A stretch of DNA of 64,000 bases, taken from NCBI GenBank assembly GCA_017524665.1, contig JAFXVF010000002.1, positions 13,026 through 77,025 on the forward strand, in the 5' to 3' direction. The stretch comes from Clostridia bacterium. Its GTDB lineage: Bacteria; Bacillota; Clostridia; TANB77; CAG-508. The notes under the pieces were generated by a model. It saw only the letters and a program-made list of their open reading frames with translations, searched no databases and had not been told where the DNA came from. The first letter of the stretch is position 1; every line of letters begins with the position of its first letter. Shown here piece after piece: positions 27,041 to 38,200 of the stretch. The position numbers were made by a program, and so were the translations under genes.

Positions 27041-27205
27041 TAACAGCAAAGTTTCCGCTCCCGGAGAGTTATATTTTTTCTTCCTCATTGCCCCATCCTA
27101 GAACTTGTAGTTCGTGTTTCACACTCACACAAGTTCTACGGCGGCTACCCCGGAGTCATTCGTCATAAAAAATATGGAACTCTCCTCGCGCTGTTATCTT
27201 TAATA
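27041..27205. repeat. Structured intergenic repeat element, copy 1 (related to the copy at 38037)
   Basis: Shares 'ccgctccc(g/a)ggagagt.tat.tttttct', '...cggcgg..cccc(c)ggag...' and 'ctctcct(t)cgcgct' with the second copy. Has an internal hairpin tagaacttgt...acaagttcta. Confidence 0.55.
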
Positions 27206-27248
27206 ATTAATGATGTTTTATGTGATAAAAATTTAAGGAGGAACGAGC

Positions 27249-30200
27249 ATGCCAGACTTTGTGCATTTGCATGTGCATAGTGAATTTAGCTTACTTGATG
27301 GTGCTATTAGAATAAAAGAGCTACCTAAACGAGTAAAAGAGCTTGGAATGAGTGCTGTTGCCCTTACAGACCATGGAGTTATGTATGGAGCGATAGACTT
27401 TTATAAAGCATGCAAAAATGAAGGCATAAAGCCAATTATTGGCTGTGAAGTGTACGTTGCTCCAAGAAGCAGATTTGATAAAGAACCAGGAACAGATAAT
27501 AAATACAACCACCTTATATTACTTGCAAAAAATAACGATGGATACAAGAATTTAAGTAAACTTGTATCTCTTGGTTTTACAGAAGGCTACTACTATAAGC
27601 CAAGGATAGATTTAGAAACACTAGAAAAATATCATGAAGGGCTAATATGTTGTAGTGCATGTTTAGCAGGAAGTGTAGCATCAGCGTTGCTAGAAGGCAA
27701 ACAAGAAGAAGCAGAAAAAATAGCTATGTGGCATAAGAACTTGTTCGGAGAGGACTACTACCTAGAAATACAAGCAAATACTTTAAAAAAGCAGGCATTA
27801 ATAAATCAAAAAATAGTTGAAATGAGCAAAAAATTAAATATACCACTTGTTATTACAAATGACTCACATTACCTAAATAAAGAAGATTTTGATAGCCATG
27901 AAGTTTTGCTATGCGTTCAAACTGGAAAAAAGATGAACGACATAGATAGAATGAGTTTTGAAGTAAATGATTTTTATTTAAAAAGTCCAGAAGAAATAGC
28001 AGACTTTATTCCGAACCTACCAGAAGCAATGGAAAACACAGTAAAGATAGCTGAAAAATGTAATGTGGATTTTGAATTTGGACACACAATACTGCCAAAC
28101 TATGATGTACCGGCAGAATTTCCAACACACTTTGATTTCTTTAGAAAACTATGTGATGAGGGAATAAGGAATAGATATGGGCAAAACCCATCTAAAGAAA
28201 TTTTAGATAGAATGGAATATGAAATTGAAGTAATCAAAAAGATGGGCTATGTAGATTACTTCCTTATAGTATGGGATTTTATTCATTATGCAAAATCTCA
28301 TGGAATACCAGTAGGACCAGGACGTGGTTCTGGTGCTGGTTCTATTGTTGCATATGCAATAGAAATAACAGACATAGACCCAATAAAGTATGACTTGCTT
28401 TTCGAAAGATTTTTAAACCCAGAAAGAATAAGCATGCCCGATTTTGACGTTGACTTTTGTTATGAAAGACGTCAAAAGGTTTTAGATTATGTATCAAAAA
28501 AATATGGTGCAGACCATGTTTCACAGATTATAACATTTGGAACAATGTCTGCAAGGATGGTAATACGTGACGTTGGAAGAGTACTAGATTTACCATATGC
28601 AGAAGCGGACAAGCTCGCAAAAATGATTCCAAATGAGTTACATATTACGATAAAAAAGGCGATGGAGCAAAATAGGGAACTAAAAGAGCTATATGAAACA
28701 GACGAGAAAATTAAGAACCTATTAGATATTGCAATGTCGCTAGAGGGACTTCCAAGGCAGGCTTCTACACATGCTTGTGGTGTTGTTATAACAAAAGAAC
28801 CAGTTGTAAATTATGTGCCATTATATGTAAGAGAAGATACAATTTCAACCCAATATATTATGACTACTCTTGAAGAATTAGGTCTACTTAAGATGGATTT
28901 TTTAGGCCTTCGTACCCTTACTGTTATAGATGATGCAATAAAATATGTAAAACAAAACAGGGGAATAGATGTTGAATTTGATAAAGAAATGAATGACCCC
29001 AAGGTATATAAACTATGGGCAGAAGGAAAGTCTCTTGGAATATTCCAGTTTGAAAGCCAAGGCATGACTAACTTTATGAAGGAACTAAAGCCAGATGGAC
29101 TAGAAGATATTATAGCCGGAGTATCACTATATAGACCTGGTCCAATGGATCAAATTCCAAGATATATTAAAAACAAGCTACATCCAGATAACATTGAATA
29201 TACGCATCCAGCATTAGAGCCAATTTTGCATGTAACATATGGATGTATGGTATACCAAGAGCAAGTTATGCAAATTGTAAGACAGCTTGCAGGCTATTCA
29301 TTAGGAAGAGCTGACCTAGTAAGACGTGCAATGGGAAAGAAAAAGCTTGATGTAATGGCAAAAGAAAGAGAATACTTTATTCATGGTCAAGTAGATGAAC
29401 AAGGTAACATCATTATTCCAGGATGCGTAAGAAATGGAATAGATGAAGAATCTGCAAACAAAATATTTGATGAAATGGCAGAGTTTGCAAAATATGCATT
29501 TAACAAATCTCATGCTGCTGCGTATGCAGTTGTATCATATAGAACAGCATATTTAAAAGCATACTATCCAGAAGAATTTATGGCAGCAACATTAAATAGC
29601 TTTTTAGGAAACCTCGATAAAGTGCCTGAATATATTGATGAATGTAAACGAATGAACATACAAATATTAAAGCCAGACATAAATAAAAGCGATACAAAAT
29701 TTACAGTAAAAAGAGGAGAAATTCGTTTTGGCTTAGGCAGTATAAAAAATGTTGGAGTAGCCGCAGTTGATACAATTTGTGCTGAGCGAGAAAAAAATGG
29801 CGAATTTAAGTCAATAGCAGATTTCTGTGAAAGAATTAGTGGAGAAGCGGTAAATAAAAAATGCATAGAATCACTAATAAAAGCAGGAGCTTTTGATGAC
29901 TTAGGTGAAACCAGAGCAACATTACTTGCATCATTTGAAGGAATAATTGATGCAATTTCTGATAGTGAAAGAAAGTCTTTAAAAGGCCAAGTAAGCATGT
30001 TTGACTTAGGTGGAGAAACAGAATCTACTAATATGGAAGATTTAAAATACAAATACGAAATAAGACCTGAGTTTTCACAAAAAGAACTTCTCTCAATGGA
30101 AAAAGATATGCTAGGGCTATACATTTCAGGGCATCCTTTAGAGAACATGAGAGAACAGATATTATCTCAAACAAATATTAACACCTTAAAAATGCATGAA

Positions 30201-30716
30201 ATAGGAAATGACGAGGAAGTTCAAGAATACAAAGACGGGCAAAATGTTACATATGCAGGAATAGTTACATCTATAAAGAAAAAATACACAAAGAATAATA
30301 CTTTAATGGCTTTTGTTACTGTAGAAGACCTATATGGAAGCTGTGAAATAATTGTATTTGATAGCTGCTACCAAAGAGCTAGCAATGTTTTAATAGAAGA
30401 TAACATTGTGCTAATAGAAGGAAGACTAAGCTTAAGAGAAGACGAAGAGCCTAAAATAGTTGCAAACAATATAAGAGAATTTGTAAAACAAACAAAGAAG
30501 GTATTAAACATAGATATAACCAACTTAGACGAAGAAAGCAAGAATAGACTAAGAGGTGCACTAAAGTTCTTTATGGGAGAAAGAACTAACATGGCGATAC
30601 AAATAATAGACGGAGAACAAGTAAAACCAGCAGGAGGAATATACTTAACAGAAAACATTTTAAAAGAGCTACAAGAAGTAACAGGAGAAGATAGGGTAAA
30701 ATTGGTTGAAGTGTAG
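27249..30716 (+). CDS. dnaE: DNA polymerase III alpha subunit
   Basis: 1155 aa. PHP domain 'HLHVHSEFSLLDGA', then polymerase core and OB fold. Confidence 0.9.
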   Translation: MPDFVHLHVHSEFSLLDGAIRIKELPKRVKELGMSAVALTDHGVMYGAIDFYKACKNEGIKPIIGCEVYVAPRSRFDKEPGTDNKYNHLILLAKNNDGYKNLSKLVSLGFTEGYYYKPRIDLETLEKYHEGLICCSACLAGSVASALLEGKQEEAEKIAMWHKNLFGEDYYLEIQANTLKKQALINQKIVEMSKKLNIPLVITNDSHYLNKEDFDSHEVLLCVQTGKKMNDIDRMSFEVNDFYLKSPEEIADFIPNLPEAMENTVKIAEKCNVDFEFGHTILPNYDVPAEFPTHFDFFRKLCDEGIRNRYGQNPSKEILDRMEYEIEVIKKMGYVDYFLIVWDFIHYAKSHGIPVGPGRGSGAGSIVAYAIEITDIDPIKYDLLFERFLNPERISMPDFDVDFCYERRQKVLDYVSKKYGADHVSQIITFGTMSARMVIRDVGRVLDLPYAEADKLAKMIPNELHITIKKAMEQNRELKELYETDEKIKNLLDIAMSLEGLPRQASTHACGVVITKEPVVNYVPLYVREDTISTQYIMTTLEELGLLKMDFLGLRTLTVIDDAIKYVKQNRGIDVEFDKEMNDPKVYKLWAEGKSLGIFQFESQGMTNFMKELKPDGLEDIIAGVSLYRPGPMDQIPRYIKNKLHPDNIEYTHPALEPILHVTYGCMVYQEQVMQIVRQLAGYSLGRADLVRRAMGKKKLDVMAKEREYFIHGQVDEQGNIIIPGCVRNGIDEESANKIFDEMAEFAKYAFNKSHAAAYAVVSYRTAYLKAYYPEEFMAATLNSFLGNLDKVPEYIDECKRMNIQILKPDINKSDTKFTVKRGEIRFGLGSIKNVGVAAVDTICAEREKNGEFKSIADFCERISGEAVNKKCIESLIKAGAFDDLGETRATLLASFEGIIDAISDSERKSLKGQVSMFDLGGETESTNMEDLKYKYEIRPEFSQKELLSMEKDMLGLYISGHPLENMREQILSQTNINTLKMHEIGNDEEVQEYKDGQNVTYAGIVTSIKKKYTKNNTLMAFVTVEDLYGSCEIIVFDSCYQRASNVLIEDNIVLIEGRLSLREDEEPKIVANNIREFVKQTKKVLNIDITNLDEESKNRLRGALKFFMGERTNMAIQIIDGEQVKPAGGIYLTENILKELQEVTGEDRVKLVEV

Positions 30717-30926
30717 TGAAAGTATAAAAAAGTATTGTTTTTTTAGAGCTGTTGTGATAATATTAAAAAAATTAGTACATAAGAAAAAGGAGAATACATA
30801 TGAAAACAGATAAACTCCTTGAAATTACAAATGGTTTAATAAATAAAATAATTTATAGCTACCTATCAATGCTTTATGCATAAGATGGGTAGCTTTTGTT
30901 GCTTAATAAAAACAAAGGGGATTGAT

Positions 30927-37655: not shown

Positions 37656-37774
37656 GGCAAAGGGGATGGATTCTTTGCCTCACATAAATTTAATTGCAAA
37701 AAGTCTTGTAATTATTACTAAAAAGTGGTAATATATTATTGTTAAAACCATTGACAAAGCAAAGTAGAATACAT

Positions 37775-38005
37775 ATTTTTCTTATTAGAGAGAATGGGTC
37801 AATAGGCTGAAAGCCCATTTTAAGAAACTGTATTTGAAATTTCACTTTCGAGGTCTTTTGTTGAAAAGCTTAAGTAGGCAAAAGCGTGTAGCTTACGTTA
37901 AAAGCTAATTTAAGAGATTTGCTAAAAACATTAAGCAAATAAAATAGGTGGTACCGCGGAATATAAGCCATTTCGTCCTATGTTTTAGGATGAAATGGCT
38001 TTTTT
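37775..38005 (+). promoter_or_regulatory. T-box riboswitch leader (Phe) with its terminator
   Basis: T-box sequence 'aaataggtggtaccgcgg'. It overlaps the terminator hairpin aagccatttcgtcc...ggatgaaatggcttttttg. Confidence 0.7.
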
Positions 38006-38036
38006 GATTAGTATTCTAAAATAATAAATCTATAAC

Positions 38037-38200
38037 TTAAACTACATATTTGTTACCGCTCCCAGGAGAGTCTATTTTTCTTTCCTTCGCTTCTTCCCAC
38101 CGGCGCTGTAACAGATAAATCTTAACAGCGCTCGGCGGTCCCCCCGGAGAAGCTCGACTAAGAAAAATAGAAGCTCTCCTTCGCGCTAGTATAACTACTT
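38037..38200. repeat. Structured intergenic repeat element, copy 2, inserted between the T-box terminator and pheS.
   Basis: See copy 1 at 27041. Internal hairpin ggcgctgt...acagcgctc. Confidence 0.55.

What the first reader, a model, noticed from the sequence alone, without database searches (positions are those of the whole stretch)
27041..38200. Two copies of a ~160-nt GC-rich structured intergenic element, just upstream of dnaE and of pheS
The copies at 27041-27205 and 38037-38200 share conserved ends: 'ccgctccc(g/a)ggagagt.tat.tttttct(t)cctc' at one end, and '...cggcgg..cccc(c)ggag......ctctcct(t)cgcgct(g/a).tat' at the other. Their central hairpins differ in sequence but are equivalent in structure. 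The element could be a small RNA, a MITE, or a regulatory or REP-like element. In the pheS case it is wedged between the T-box terminator and the start codon.
Basis: seen in the sequence. Interest (0 to 1): 0.55.

Follow-up and report, generated by a model that had tools for sequence, protein, structure and literature searches.

The report
Mobile GC-rich hairpin repeat in Clostridia
The two look-alike stretches are real copies of a previously undescribed ~140-base hairpin-forming repeat that has inserted into spacers between genes in a few uncultured gut Clostridia; it is a small mobile passenger, not a dedicated regulator of dnaE or pheS.

Summary
Copy A (core 27052-27193) and copy B (core 38053-38188) are both on the + strand. 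They share invariant GC-rich blocks (CCGCTCCC, CGGCGG, TCGCGCT) and one long imperfect-hairpin architecture with different stem sequences.

I found five more distinct copies in three other metagenomic lineages, next to unrelated genes (spoIIIAA, spoIIIAE, xseA and an unknown gene). One of them is antisense to its neighbours. Close relatives (92-95% PheS, 83-84% SpoIIIAD) have empty sites at the pheS and spoIIIAD/AE positions, so the element is an insertion, not a conserved leader.

Stems are kept by compensatory changes: 95% of cells are paired across 7 copies, and 25 of 45 pairs changed on both sides. There are two subfamilies, with A-type and B-type centres.

There is no match in Rfam, among plasmids or phages, or in the literature. 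I found no target-site duplication, no partner transposase and no promoter inside the element.

Best reading: a new family of small non-autonomous palindromic repeats, like MITE, ERIC or BOX elements. It is co-transcribed into mRNA leaders, and any effect on expression is untested. My genome and metagenome scans were too strict, so copy number and host range remain unknown.

This is a new member of a known kind, of moderate interest.

The parts
27052..27193 (+). Copy A, conserved core with an A-type centre. Invariant blocks: CCGCTCCC 27055-27062, CGGCGG 27139-27144, CTCTCC 27180-27185, TCGCGCT 27186-27192.
   Evidence: Full-length match to model R1 at 48.4 bits, E 1.1e-9. Sequence. Fold.
27013..27037 (+). 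Copy A, left outer arm. It is copy-specific and AT-rich and starts within the last codons of the S4-domain gene.
   Evidence: Inverted repeat I6, 25 nt, 88% complementary to 27210-27234. Extended fold.
27210..27234 (+). Copy A, right outer arm. It ends about 15 nt before the dnaE ribosome-binding site.
   Evidence: I6.
38053..38188 (+). Copy B, conserved core with a B-type centre. Invariant blocks: CCGCTCCC 38056-38063, CGGCGG 38133-38138, CTCTCC 38174-38179, TCGCGCT 38181-38187.
   Evidence: Match to model R1 at 155 bits. Sequence. Fold.
38008..38032 (+). Copy B, left outer arm. It is copy-specific and AT-rich.
   Evidence: Inverted repeat I3, 25 nt, 96% complementary to 38200-38224. Extended fold at -83.6 kcal/mol, z -8.5.
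38200..38224 (+). Copy B, right outer arm. It ends just before the pheS ribosome-binding site AGGAGG.
   Evidence: I3.
37742..38007 (+). Context only: the T-box leader of pheST with its terminator (stem 37965-38001, then a U-tract). It is intact, and the element starts a few bases after it.
   Evidence: RF00230 at 126 bits. Terminator scan. Aligned with relatives that lack the element.
26786..27022 (+). Context only: the S4-domain protein gene upstream of copy A.
   Evidence: PF01479.
27249..30716 (+). Context only: dnaE, the DNA polymerase III alpha subunit, downstream of copy A.
   Evidence: PHP, DNA_pol3_alpha, finger, HHH_6 and OB domains.
38241..41717 (+). Context only: pheS (38241-39278) and pheT (39294-41717), downstream of copy B.

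Best explanation
The two stretches are copies of a small, non-coding, non-autonomous dispersed repeat. Its core is about 136-142 nt (about 150 nt with short terminal extensions), and the whole sequence is one long imperfect palindrome. The family has invariant GC-rich blocks at both ends (5' CCGCTCCC, 3' TCGCGCT) and one interior block (CGGCGG followed by a C-rich bulge). It has two interchangeable centre modules, A-type and B-type. Copies have been inserted, by an unidentified trans-acting enzyme, into short AT-rich spacers just after a stop codon or terminator and just before the next gene's ribosome-binding site.

Shown: the element is dispersed, it is present or absent at orthologous sites, and its hairpin is maintained by compensatory changes.

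Inferred: where it points the same way as the genes (6 of 7 copies), it is transcribed as part of the mRNA and folds into a compact hairpin. That hairpin leaves the T-box terminator upstream and the ribosome-binding site downstream free, so the insertion is tolerated. It may secondarily alter mRNA processing or stability, as with RNase III at Correia elements, but this is untested. It is not a dedicated regulator of dnaE or pheS.
For: 1. The similarity is real. Model R1, built without copy A, finds A at E~1e-9, and nothing else in the window with filters off.

2. Five further distinct copies exist in other contexts:
- C, spoIIIAD->spoIIIAE, in an uncultured Clostridiaceae MAG.
- D, nusB->xseA, in the same contig, antisense to the genes.
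- E, yebC->spoIIIAA, and F, spoIIIAD->spoIIIAE, in another lineage.
- G, in a 629-nt contig after an unrelated gene's terminator.

3. Empty sites. In relatives with 95% and 92% PheS identity, the T-box terminator is followed directly by the RBS. In relatives with 83-84% SpoIIIAD identity, the spoIIIAD/AE spacer is only 7-39 nt.

4. Short-read assemblies break inside both window copies.

5. The hairpin is maintained:
- Within the B-type, 98.9% of cells are paired and 7 pairs changed on both sides (1 of 500 shuffles reach this).
- Within the A-type, 96.7% are paired and 4 pairs changed on both sides.
- Across all seven copies, 95.3% are paired against 79.5% in shuffles, 25 of 45 pairs changed on both sides, and slid controls give about 50%.
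- Visible examples: GAGAGTT/AACTCTC -> GTGAGTT/AACTCAC in D, and an extra A-U or G-C pair that is present or absent together in both arms.

6. No ORF spans the element, and no promoter-like site lies inside it.

7. It matches the published description of prokaryotic MITEs: under 500 bp, terminal inverted repeats, AT-rich intergenic targets and transcripts that form stable stem-loops (PMC10969869, section 2.1).
Against: - No consistent target-site duplication was found at any fixed offset.
- No autonomous element or transposase with matching ends was found. There is none in the window, and the public collections could not be rescanned.
- Only 7 distinct copies are known. Scans of 185,579 species genomes and of JGI metagenomes added just one, but those patterns match none of copies D-G, so the scans were insensitive.
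- Conserved unpaired nucleotides combined with covarying stems, and 6 of 7 copies co-oriented with the genes, are also what a functional RNA module would show.
- Compensatory changes in a palindrome could arise from hairpin-templated repair rather than from selection.
Confidence: 0.6

Rival explanations
1. The element is a functional structured RNA module acting in cis on the mRNA that carries it, for example as a processing or stability element or as a translation modulator. On this reading it has been spread or retained because of that function. Its conserved unpaired motifs (the UCCC loop and the C-rich bulge after CGGCGG) would be protein- or RNA-binding sites.
For: Covariation is strong and loop nucleotides are invariant. 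Six of seven copies point the same way as the flanking genes and lie 20-55 nt upstream of a ribosome-binding site. The C-rich unpaired tracts resemble anti-Shine-Dalgarno motifs of Firmicute sRNAs (my own knowledge, not tested here).
Against: The neighbouring genes are functionally unrelated (dnaE, pheS, spoIIIAA, spoIIIAE, xseA). Copy D is antisense to its genes. Close relatives do without the element at the same sites. There is no Rfam family match even at E<=10. The minus strand folds 8-12 kcal/mol more stably in all copies, and both G.U and A.C mismatches occur, so there is no sign that the sense RNA is the selected fold. In predicted folds the downstream RBS is left unpaired.
Confidence: 0.2
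2. The element is a structure-specific recombination or transposition substrate that acts as folded single-stranded DNA, in the manner of integron attC sites, REP/RAYT pairs or IS200/IS605 ends. A dedicated enzyme would read the hairpin geometry and the conserved unpaired bases rather than a duplex sequence.
For: The stems covary while the bulge and loop bases stay fixed. No target-site duplication was found. Three of seven copies sit inside longer flank-flank hairpins, as if hairpin loops were targeted.
Against: The 4-5 nt to the left of the conserved end vary (GTTTC, GTTAC, AAGTC, TAGTC), unlike the fixed target of IS200/IS605. The order of the end motifs is not that of attC (AAC...GTT). Copies C and D lie 9 kb apart in one contig in opposite orientations, so there is no replication-strand bias. 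No integrase, RAYT or HUH gene was seen in any locus held.
Confidence: 0.12
3. The resemblance is a chance similarity between two unrelated GC-rich intergenic hairpins.
For: Only two copies occur in the 64-kb window.
Against: E-values run from 1e-9 to 1e-46. The conserved 17-nt block was expected 0.00 times by chance. Five more copies exist elsewhere.
Confidence: 0.01

Closest known systems
Prokaryotic MITEs in the broad sense (type II MITEs, for which no related IS is recognisable)
   Same: The element is small and non-coding and has inverted-repeat ends. It is dispersed in AT-rich intergenic spacers, present or absent between close relatives, and its transcript is predicted to form a stable stem-loop (PMC10969869).
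   Different: No target-site duplication was detectable. No parent IS is known. The core is GC-rich in an AT-rich genome, whereas MITEs are typically AT-rich. The whole element, not only its tips, is palindromic.
ERIC/IRU elements of Enterobacteria (127-nt imperfect palindromes in transcribed intergenic regions) and Neisseria Correia elements
   Same: Both are 100-150-nt imperfect palindromes found in transcribed spacers. They are co-transcribed, and the hairpin can become an RNase substrate (PMC10969869; PMC2229807 and PMC3184786, listed).
   Different: There is no sequence relationship. Correia elements have a TA duplication and an IHF site, and neither was seen here. The hosts here are uncultured Clostridia.
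Pneumococcal BOX elements (modular boxA-boxB-boxC)
   Same: Both are modular, with conserved ends and exchangeable middle modules. Both are intergenic and fold stably (PMC3049150, listed; details from my own knowledge).
   Different: The sequence is different, BOX has tandem boxB modules, and the copy number here is unknown.
REP/BIME sequences with RAYT transposases
   Same: Both are GC-rich palindromes in intergenic DNA whose stems are kept by compensatory change.
   Different: REPs are 20-40 nt with a conserved GTAG head and occur in hundreds of copies with a RAYT gene. This element is about 140 nt, and no RAYT gene was seen.
Cis-regulatory mRNA leaders (T-box, riboswitches, ribosomal-protein leaders)
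   Same: The element is structured, lies in a 5' UTR just upstream of the RBS, and shows covariation.
   Different: Leaders are tied to one gene family and are conserved in orthologous positions. This element is not. It sits downstream of an already complete T-box.

Membership tests
MITE | Short (<500 bp) and without coding capacity | tested here: met
   The cores are 136-142 nt. No ORF of 30 aa or more spans either window copy.
MITE | Terminal inverted repeats | tested here: met
   The 5' end CGC..GGAGAG(T) + AT-rich run pairs with the 3' end AT-rich run + CTCTCC..GCG in all seven copies.
MITE | Flanking direct repeats (target-site duplication) | tested here: inconclusive
   No repeat of 2 nt or more is shared at any fixed pair of boundary offsets across the seven copies. 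The duplications may have decayed, or there may never have been any.
MITE | Several dispersed copies, and presence/absence at orthologous sites | tested here: met
   Seven distinct copies lie at six loci in four lineages. Empty sites are seen at pheS and spoIIIAD/AE. Genome-wide copy number is unknown.
MITE | A related autonomous IS with the same ends that supplies the transposase | not testable with these tools
   No transposase is present in the window or in related loci.
Rfam RNA families (any) | Match to a curated covariance model | tested here: not met
   There was no hit at gathering score and none of substance at E<=10 for either copy, nor for loci L030, L031 and L044.
Gene-specific cis-regulatory leader | Conserved association with one gene family and retention in orthologous leaders | tested here: not met
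   The element lies next to dnaE, pheS, spoIIIAA, spoIIIAE and xseA. It is absent upstream of pheS in relatives with 92-95% PheS identity.
IS200/IS605-derived PATE | A fixed 4-5-nt target immediately 5' of the left end, no terminal inverted repeats, and strand bias with replication | tested here: not met
   The left-flank pentamers vary (GTTTC, GTTAC, AAGTC, TAGTC). The element has inverted ends. Two copies 9 kb apart are in opposite orientations.
Integron attC site | R''/R' core sites (RYYYAAC ... GTTRRRY), location at cassette ends in an array near intI | tested here: not met
   The ends read GTT(W)CCGC ... GCGCT(AGTNTAAC), which is the opposite order. The copies are solitary among housekeeping genes, and no integrase was seen.
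Intrinsic terminator | A GC-rich hairpin followed directly by a U-tract | tested here: not met
   No U-tract follows the main hairpin in either copy. Only a weak terminator-like match lies at the 5' tip of copy A (27052-27067), 1 found against 0.5 expected.
REP/BIME | A 20-40-nt unit, very high copy number and an associated RAYT | tested here: not met
   The unit is about 140 nt. There are two copies in about 74 kb of the host scaffold. No RAYT-like gene was seen in the loci held.

The most novel reading that the evidence does not exclude
On this reading the element is recognised as a folded single strand (DNA or RNA) by a dedicated, still unknown protein. Fixed unpaired bases (the UCCC loop and the C-rich bulge beside CGGCGG) sit on freely covarying stems, no target duplication is seen, and copies lie at the tips of longer flank hairpins. 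These features would mark a structure-specific mobilisation system in rumen Clostridia, analogous to attC/IntI or REP/RAYT but unrelated in sequence. Alternatively, it could be a mobile RNA module that changes expression of the essential genes it lands in front of.
Probability: 0.15. Interest if true: 0.65.

Novelty: new member of a known kind. Interest (0 to 1): 0.35.

Why it matters
Small palindromic repeats are poorly catalogued outside cultured model bacteria, and nothing comparable turned up for Clostridia in Rfam or in the papers searched here. This family is easy to mistake for a riboswitch-like leader, because it lies between a T-box and pheS, is GC-rich and shows covariation. Recognising it as a mobile insertion therefore prevents a false regulatory annotation. 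It also breaks short-read assemblies, which affects MAG contiguity. If its conserved unpaired motifs prove to be a protein-recognition code on a folded strand, it would point to an undescribed mobilisation enzyme. If it alters the stability or translation of the mRNAs it joins, it would be a natural example of a portable RNA module placed in front of essential genes.

Tried and rejected
- Rfam at gathering score and at E<=10 on both copies and on related loci gave nothing.
- blastn of the copies against the plasmid and phage collections gave no match.
- The genome-contig scan used an ends-only pattern. It gave 7 hits, of which 6 were chance hits, five of them in GC-rich (53-70% G+C) sequence, and 1 was real, L010.
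- The metagenome-contig scan used a mid-plus-3' pattern. It gave 10 hits, all GC-rich chance hits. In hindsight both patterns match only copies A, B and C and none of D-G, so these scans say little about rarity.
- Three viral scans gave only chance hits, including a pattern that matches all seven copies (79 loci, none passing the nhmmer profile).
- I fished for spurious ORFs called across copies. The word-indexed search found only the query itself. The exhaustive search found one more copy, P0243 -> L044.
- I tried a strand-of-function argument from G.U versus A.C mismatches and dropped it. MFE folds show both kinds of mismatch, and the minus strand is more stable in all copies.
- A search for a target-site duplication at all boundary offsets found none that was consistent.
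- I considered and rejected a coding reading. A frame is open through copy A and copy C, but the two translations diverge after an indel and no ORF is conserved.
- I considered and rejected a transposase in the window. A Pfam scan of ten candidate ORFs found none.
- The unrelated sequences that occupy the dnaE-upstream spacer in L028 and the yebC-spoIIIAA spacer in L030 are not detectable members of the family.

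
Full report
**The observation**

The window holds two related stretches at the stated places. Copy A lies between an S4-domain gene (26786-27022) and dnaE (27249-30716). Copy B lies between the pheST T-box leader and pheS (38241). The T-box leader is RF00230 at 37742-37983, with its terminator stem at 37965-38001 followed by a U-tract.

- The quoted motifs are present. The 17-nt block CGGCGGnnnCCCCGGAG occurs twice, against 0.00 expected in shuffles.
- Each copy folds into a long imperfect hairpin, far better than shuffled sequence: -40.5 and -55.8 kcal/mol, z -4.5 and -6.2.
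- A covariance model built from copy B and three copies from other metagenomes hits copy A full-length at 48 bits (E~1e-9). It fixes the cores at 27052-27193 and 38053-38188.
- With filters off, the only other hits in the window are short AT-rich terminator-type hairpins. So there are exactly two copies in the window. The 9.5 kb of the same scaffold beyond the window's right end holds none.

**Where the window comes from**

Exact-protein look-ups place the window on a 316-kb scaffold of a metagenome assembly (ERZ28653651, XIEF21-1_SAMN15830043, scaffold_30). Independent short-read assemblies of the same organism break inside both copies. Two contigs end at 27077 and others begin at 38083 and 38127. 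This is what a repeated or hairpin-forming sequence does to an assembler.

**More copies, in other places**

A strict ends-only pattern scan of one genome per species found one real hit. It lies in an uncultured Clostridiaceae MAG (CAMVIX010000012.1), between spoIIIAD and spoIIIAE. Protein-guided look-ups around that site and in relatives then gave more copies.

| Copy | Locus and coordinates | Strand | Flanking genes | Centre type |
|---|---|---|---|---|
| A | window 27052-27193 | + | S4-domain gene -> dnaE | A-type |
| B | window 38053-38188 | + | T-box leader -> pheS | B-type |
| C | L030 10394-10546 | + | spoIIIAD -> spoIIIAE | A-type |
| D | L030 19576-19718 | minus, antisense to its neighbours | nusB -> xseA | A-type |
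| E | L031 3197-3332 | + | yebC -> spoIIIAA | B-type |
| F | L031 5727-5876 | + | spoIIIAD -> spoIIIAE (also in L032-L037) | B-type |
| G | L044 233-372 | + | after the terminator of an unrelated gene | B-type |

A gene caller had placed a 56-aa ORF over copy F. Using that pseudo-protein in an exhaustive search recovered copy G on a 629-nt contig.

This gives seven distinct copies at six loci in four lineages. They fall into two subfamilies that share the ends and the CGGCGG block but have different centres: A-type (A, C, D) and B-type (B, E, F, G).

**It is an insertion**

- *pheS site.* Three relatives with 95%, 92% and 92% PheS identity align through the whole T-box. They then run from the terminator's TTTTTTGATT straight into the ribosome-binding site. 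The window carries about 200 extra bases there.
- *spoIIIAD/AE site.* Relatives with 83-84% SpoIIIAD identity have a spacer of 7-39 nt. L030 and L031 have about 177 nt.
- *Sites with other occupants.* In the 92% PheS relative the dnaE-upstream spacer holds an unrelated 142 nt. In L030 the yebC-spoIIIAA spacer holds an unrelated hairpin where L031 has copy E. Neither matches the model.

Together with the unrelated neighbouring genes and the antisense copy D, this rules out a conserved dnaE or pheS regulator.

**Anatomy**

From the outside in, using copy B as the example:

1. A 3-bp GC clamp, CGC/GCG.
2. An asymmetric internal loop: 5' UCCC and 3' UC. The 5' side is invariant in six of seven copies.
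3. The pair GGAGAG/CUCUCC, running into an AT-rich stem of about 11-14 bp with a 2-nt bulge on the 3' side.
4. An internal loop.
5. A GC-rich inner stem, in which the invariant CGGCGG pairs with 5' CC..CCG and is followed by an unpaired C-rich bulge (UCCCCCC or UCACCCC).
6. A subfamily-specific apical hairpin.

The cores are 47-56% G+C in a ~32% G+C genome. Short extensions of about 8 nt beyond each conserved end are shared within subfamilies.

**The fold is maintained**

| Set | Cells forming a standard pair | Pairs changed on both sides | Control |
|---|---|---|---|
| B-type (4 copies) | 98.9% | 7 | 1 of 500 shuffles reach this |
| A-type (3 copies) | 96.7% | 4 | 5 of 500 shuffles reach this |
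| All seven, aligned to the model | 95.3% | 25 of 45 | 79.5% paired in shuffles; about 50% when partners are slid |

That last alignment is fitted to the structure, which inflates the figure somewhat.

Examples can be read directly from the sequences:

- GAGAGTT/AACTCTC becomes GTGAGTT/AACTCAC in D.
- TAGAACTTGT/ACAAGTTCTA becomes TAGCAATTGT/ACAATTGCTA in D.
- The apical GAT/ATC of B becomes GGC/GCC in E, F and G.
- The extra base after CCC in B-type copies (A in B; G in E, F and G) is matched by an extra T or C before TCGCGCT, and A-type copies lack both.

I could not decide on which strand the fold matters. G.U and A.C mismatches both occur. The minus strand folds 8-12 kcal/mol more stably in all seven copies, which may simply reflect its G-richness.

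**What it is not**

- No Rfam family matches, even at E<=10.
- Plasmids, phages and the viral contig collection give nothing.
- The motif strings occur in no paper in the library.
- No conserved ORF crosses the element.
- No promoter-like site lies inside either copy, and no U-tract follows the hairpin. Only a weak terminator-like match sits at the 5' tip of copy A.
- No transposase is present in the window or the related loci.
- No consistent target-site duplication is found at any boundary offset.
- The bases just left of the conserved end vary, and copies C and D lie 9 kb apart in opposite orientations. Both points argue against an IS200/IS605-type single-strand element.
- The end motifs are not those of attC sites.

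**Best explanation**

The element is a new family of small non-autonomous palindromic repeats. It is of the MITE / ERIC / Correia / BOX kind as described for prokaryotes: under 500 bp, inverted ends, AT-rich intergenic targets and stable stem-loop transcripts (PMC10969869; reviews PMC2229807 and PMC3184786, listed).

Shown here:
- dispersal to unrelated sites;
- presence or absence among close relatives;
- maintenance of the hairpin;
- modular subfamilies.

Inferred:
- mobilisation in trans by an unknown enzyme;
- co-transcription with the downstream gene;
- tolerance of the insertion, because the compact hairpin leaves the T-box terminator and the ribosome-binding site free;
- possible secondary effects on mRNA processing or stability, by analogy with RNase III cleavage at Correia elements.

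My confidence in this reading is about 0.6. The main rivals are a functional RNA module (0.2) and a folded-single-strand recombination substrate (0.12). Chance similarity is excluded.

**Unresolved points**

1. *Outer arms.* Both window copies, and partly copy D, are wrapped in near-perfect, copy-specific AT-rich outer arms of 25 nt at 88% and 96% complementarity (I6 and I3). Copies C, E and G lack them, and so do the empty pheS sites. One possibility is that the core landed in the loop of an existing intergenic hairpin, of which the window has many (I1, I7, I10, I11, I17, I18). The other is that the palindrome grew outward after insertion by template switching. Both are conjecture.
2. *Same spacer, different centre.* The same tiny spoIIIAD/AE spacer carries an A-type centre in L030 and a B-type centre in L031. 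Copies E and F in L031 share an identical 45-nt centre although their arms differ. Gene conversion between copies seems likelier than repeated insertion, but this is not shown.
3. *Abundance and host range.* Both remain unknown.

**Verdict**

The feature is real. It is a new member of a known kind. Interest is moderate (0.35). It would be higher if the conserved unpaired motifs turn out to define a structure-specific mobilisation system or a portable regulatory RNA.

Noticed in passing
L045 9874-9949 (ERZ1667817 scaffold_1076; relative with 79% PheS identity): A tRNA-Phe(GAA) gene sits between the pheS T-box terminator and the pheS start. This is the same spacer that holds copy B in the window. 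The cognate tRNA would then lie downstream of, and so presumably be controlled by, the Phe T-box. Two other assemblies of this organism begin inside that tRNA.
   Followed up: partly
L028 845-870 and L039 1028-1046 (both from sample ERZ27256871): A small perfect palindrome, GGGCAGCATATTATGCTGCCC (GGGGCAGCATATTATGCTGCAC in L028), occurs in two different spacers (S4->dnaE and spoIIIAA->spoIIIAB). These contigs carry no copy of the element. It may be a separate REP-like repeat.
   Followed up: partly
L030 8050-8175: An unrelated hairpin of about 125 nt (z -3.9) fills the yebC->spoIIIAA spacer exactly where L031 carries copy E. It shares only TGTA..AACA(A/G)GCAAAGC with E. It could be a different element or a heavily decayed copy.
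   Followed up: partly
window 7111-7202, 52820-52876, 25296-25337, 43030-43068, 63307-63343, 19855-19896: There are many long AT-rich intergenic hairpins, with arms of 17-43 nt that are often perfect. Some are flanked by an A-run and a T-run, like bidirectional terminators. They are possible landing sites for the element's core.
   Followed up: no
window 41764-41834 and 43076-43146 (minus strand); 46780-47400: Two tRNA genes lie on the minus strand amid plus-strand genes. A visibly GC-richer stretch holds an amidase_2 ORF (46808-47371) next to a HerA-like ATPase gene. This may be foreign DNA.
   Followed up: no
window 55996-58217 (= L041 4086-6307): A RecD2-like helicase is called as three consecutive ORFs (OB_YrrC/HHH, HHH_RecD2, AAA_30/UvrD_C). 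This suggests frameshifts or assembly errors.
   Followed up: no
L041 15193-15604 (host scaffold, about 4 kb beyond the window's right end): A 412-nt spacer between a sortase gene and a pyrophosphatase gene holds a 46-nt inverted repeat, and a short-read contig (L042) ends there. It does not match the element model.
   Followed up: no
L030 11576-11748 / L010 7150-7389: spoIIIAE in the Clostridiaceae MAG appears frameshifted near its 3' end, with the C-terminal part in another frame. This gene lies directly downstream of copy C.
   Followed up: no
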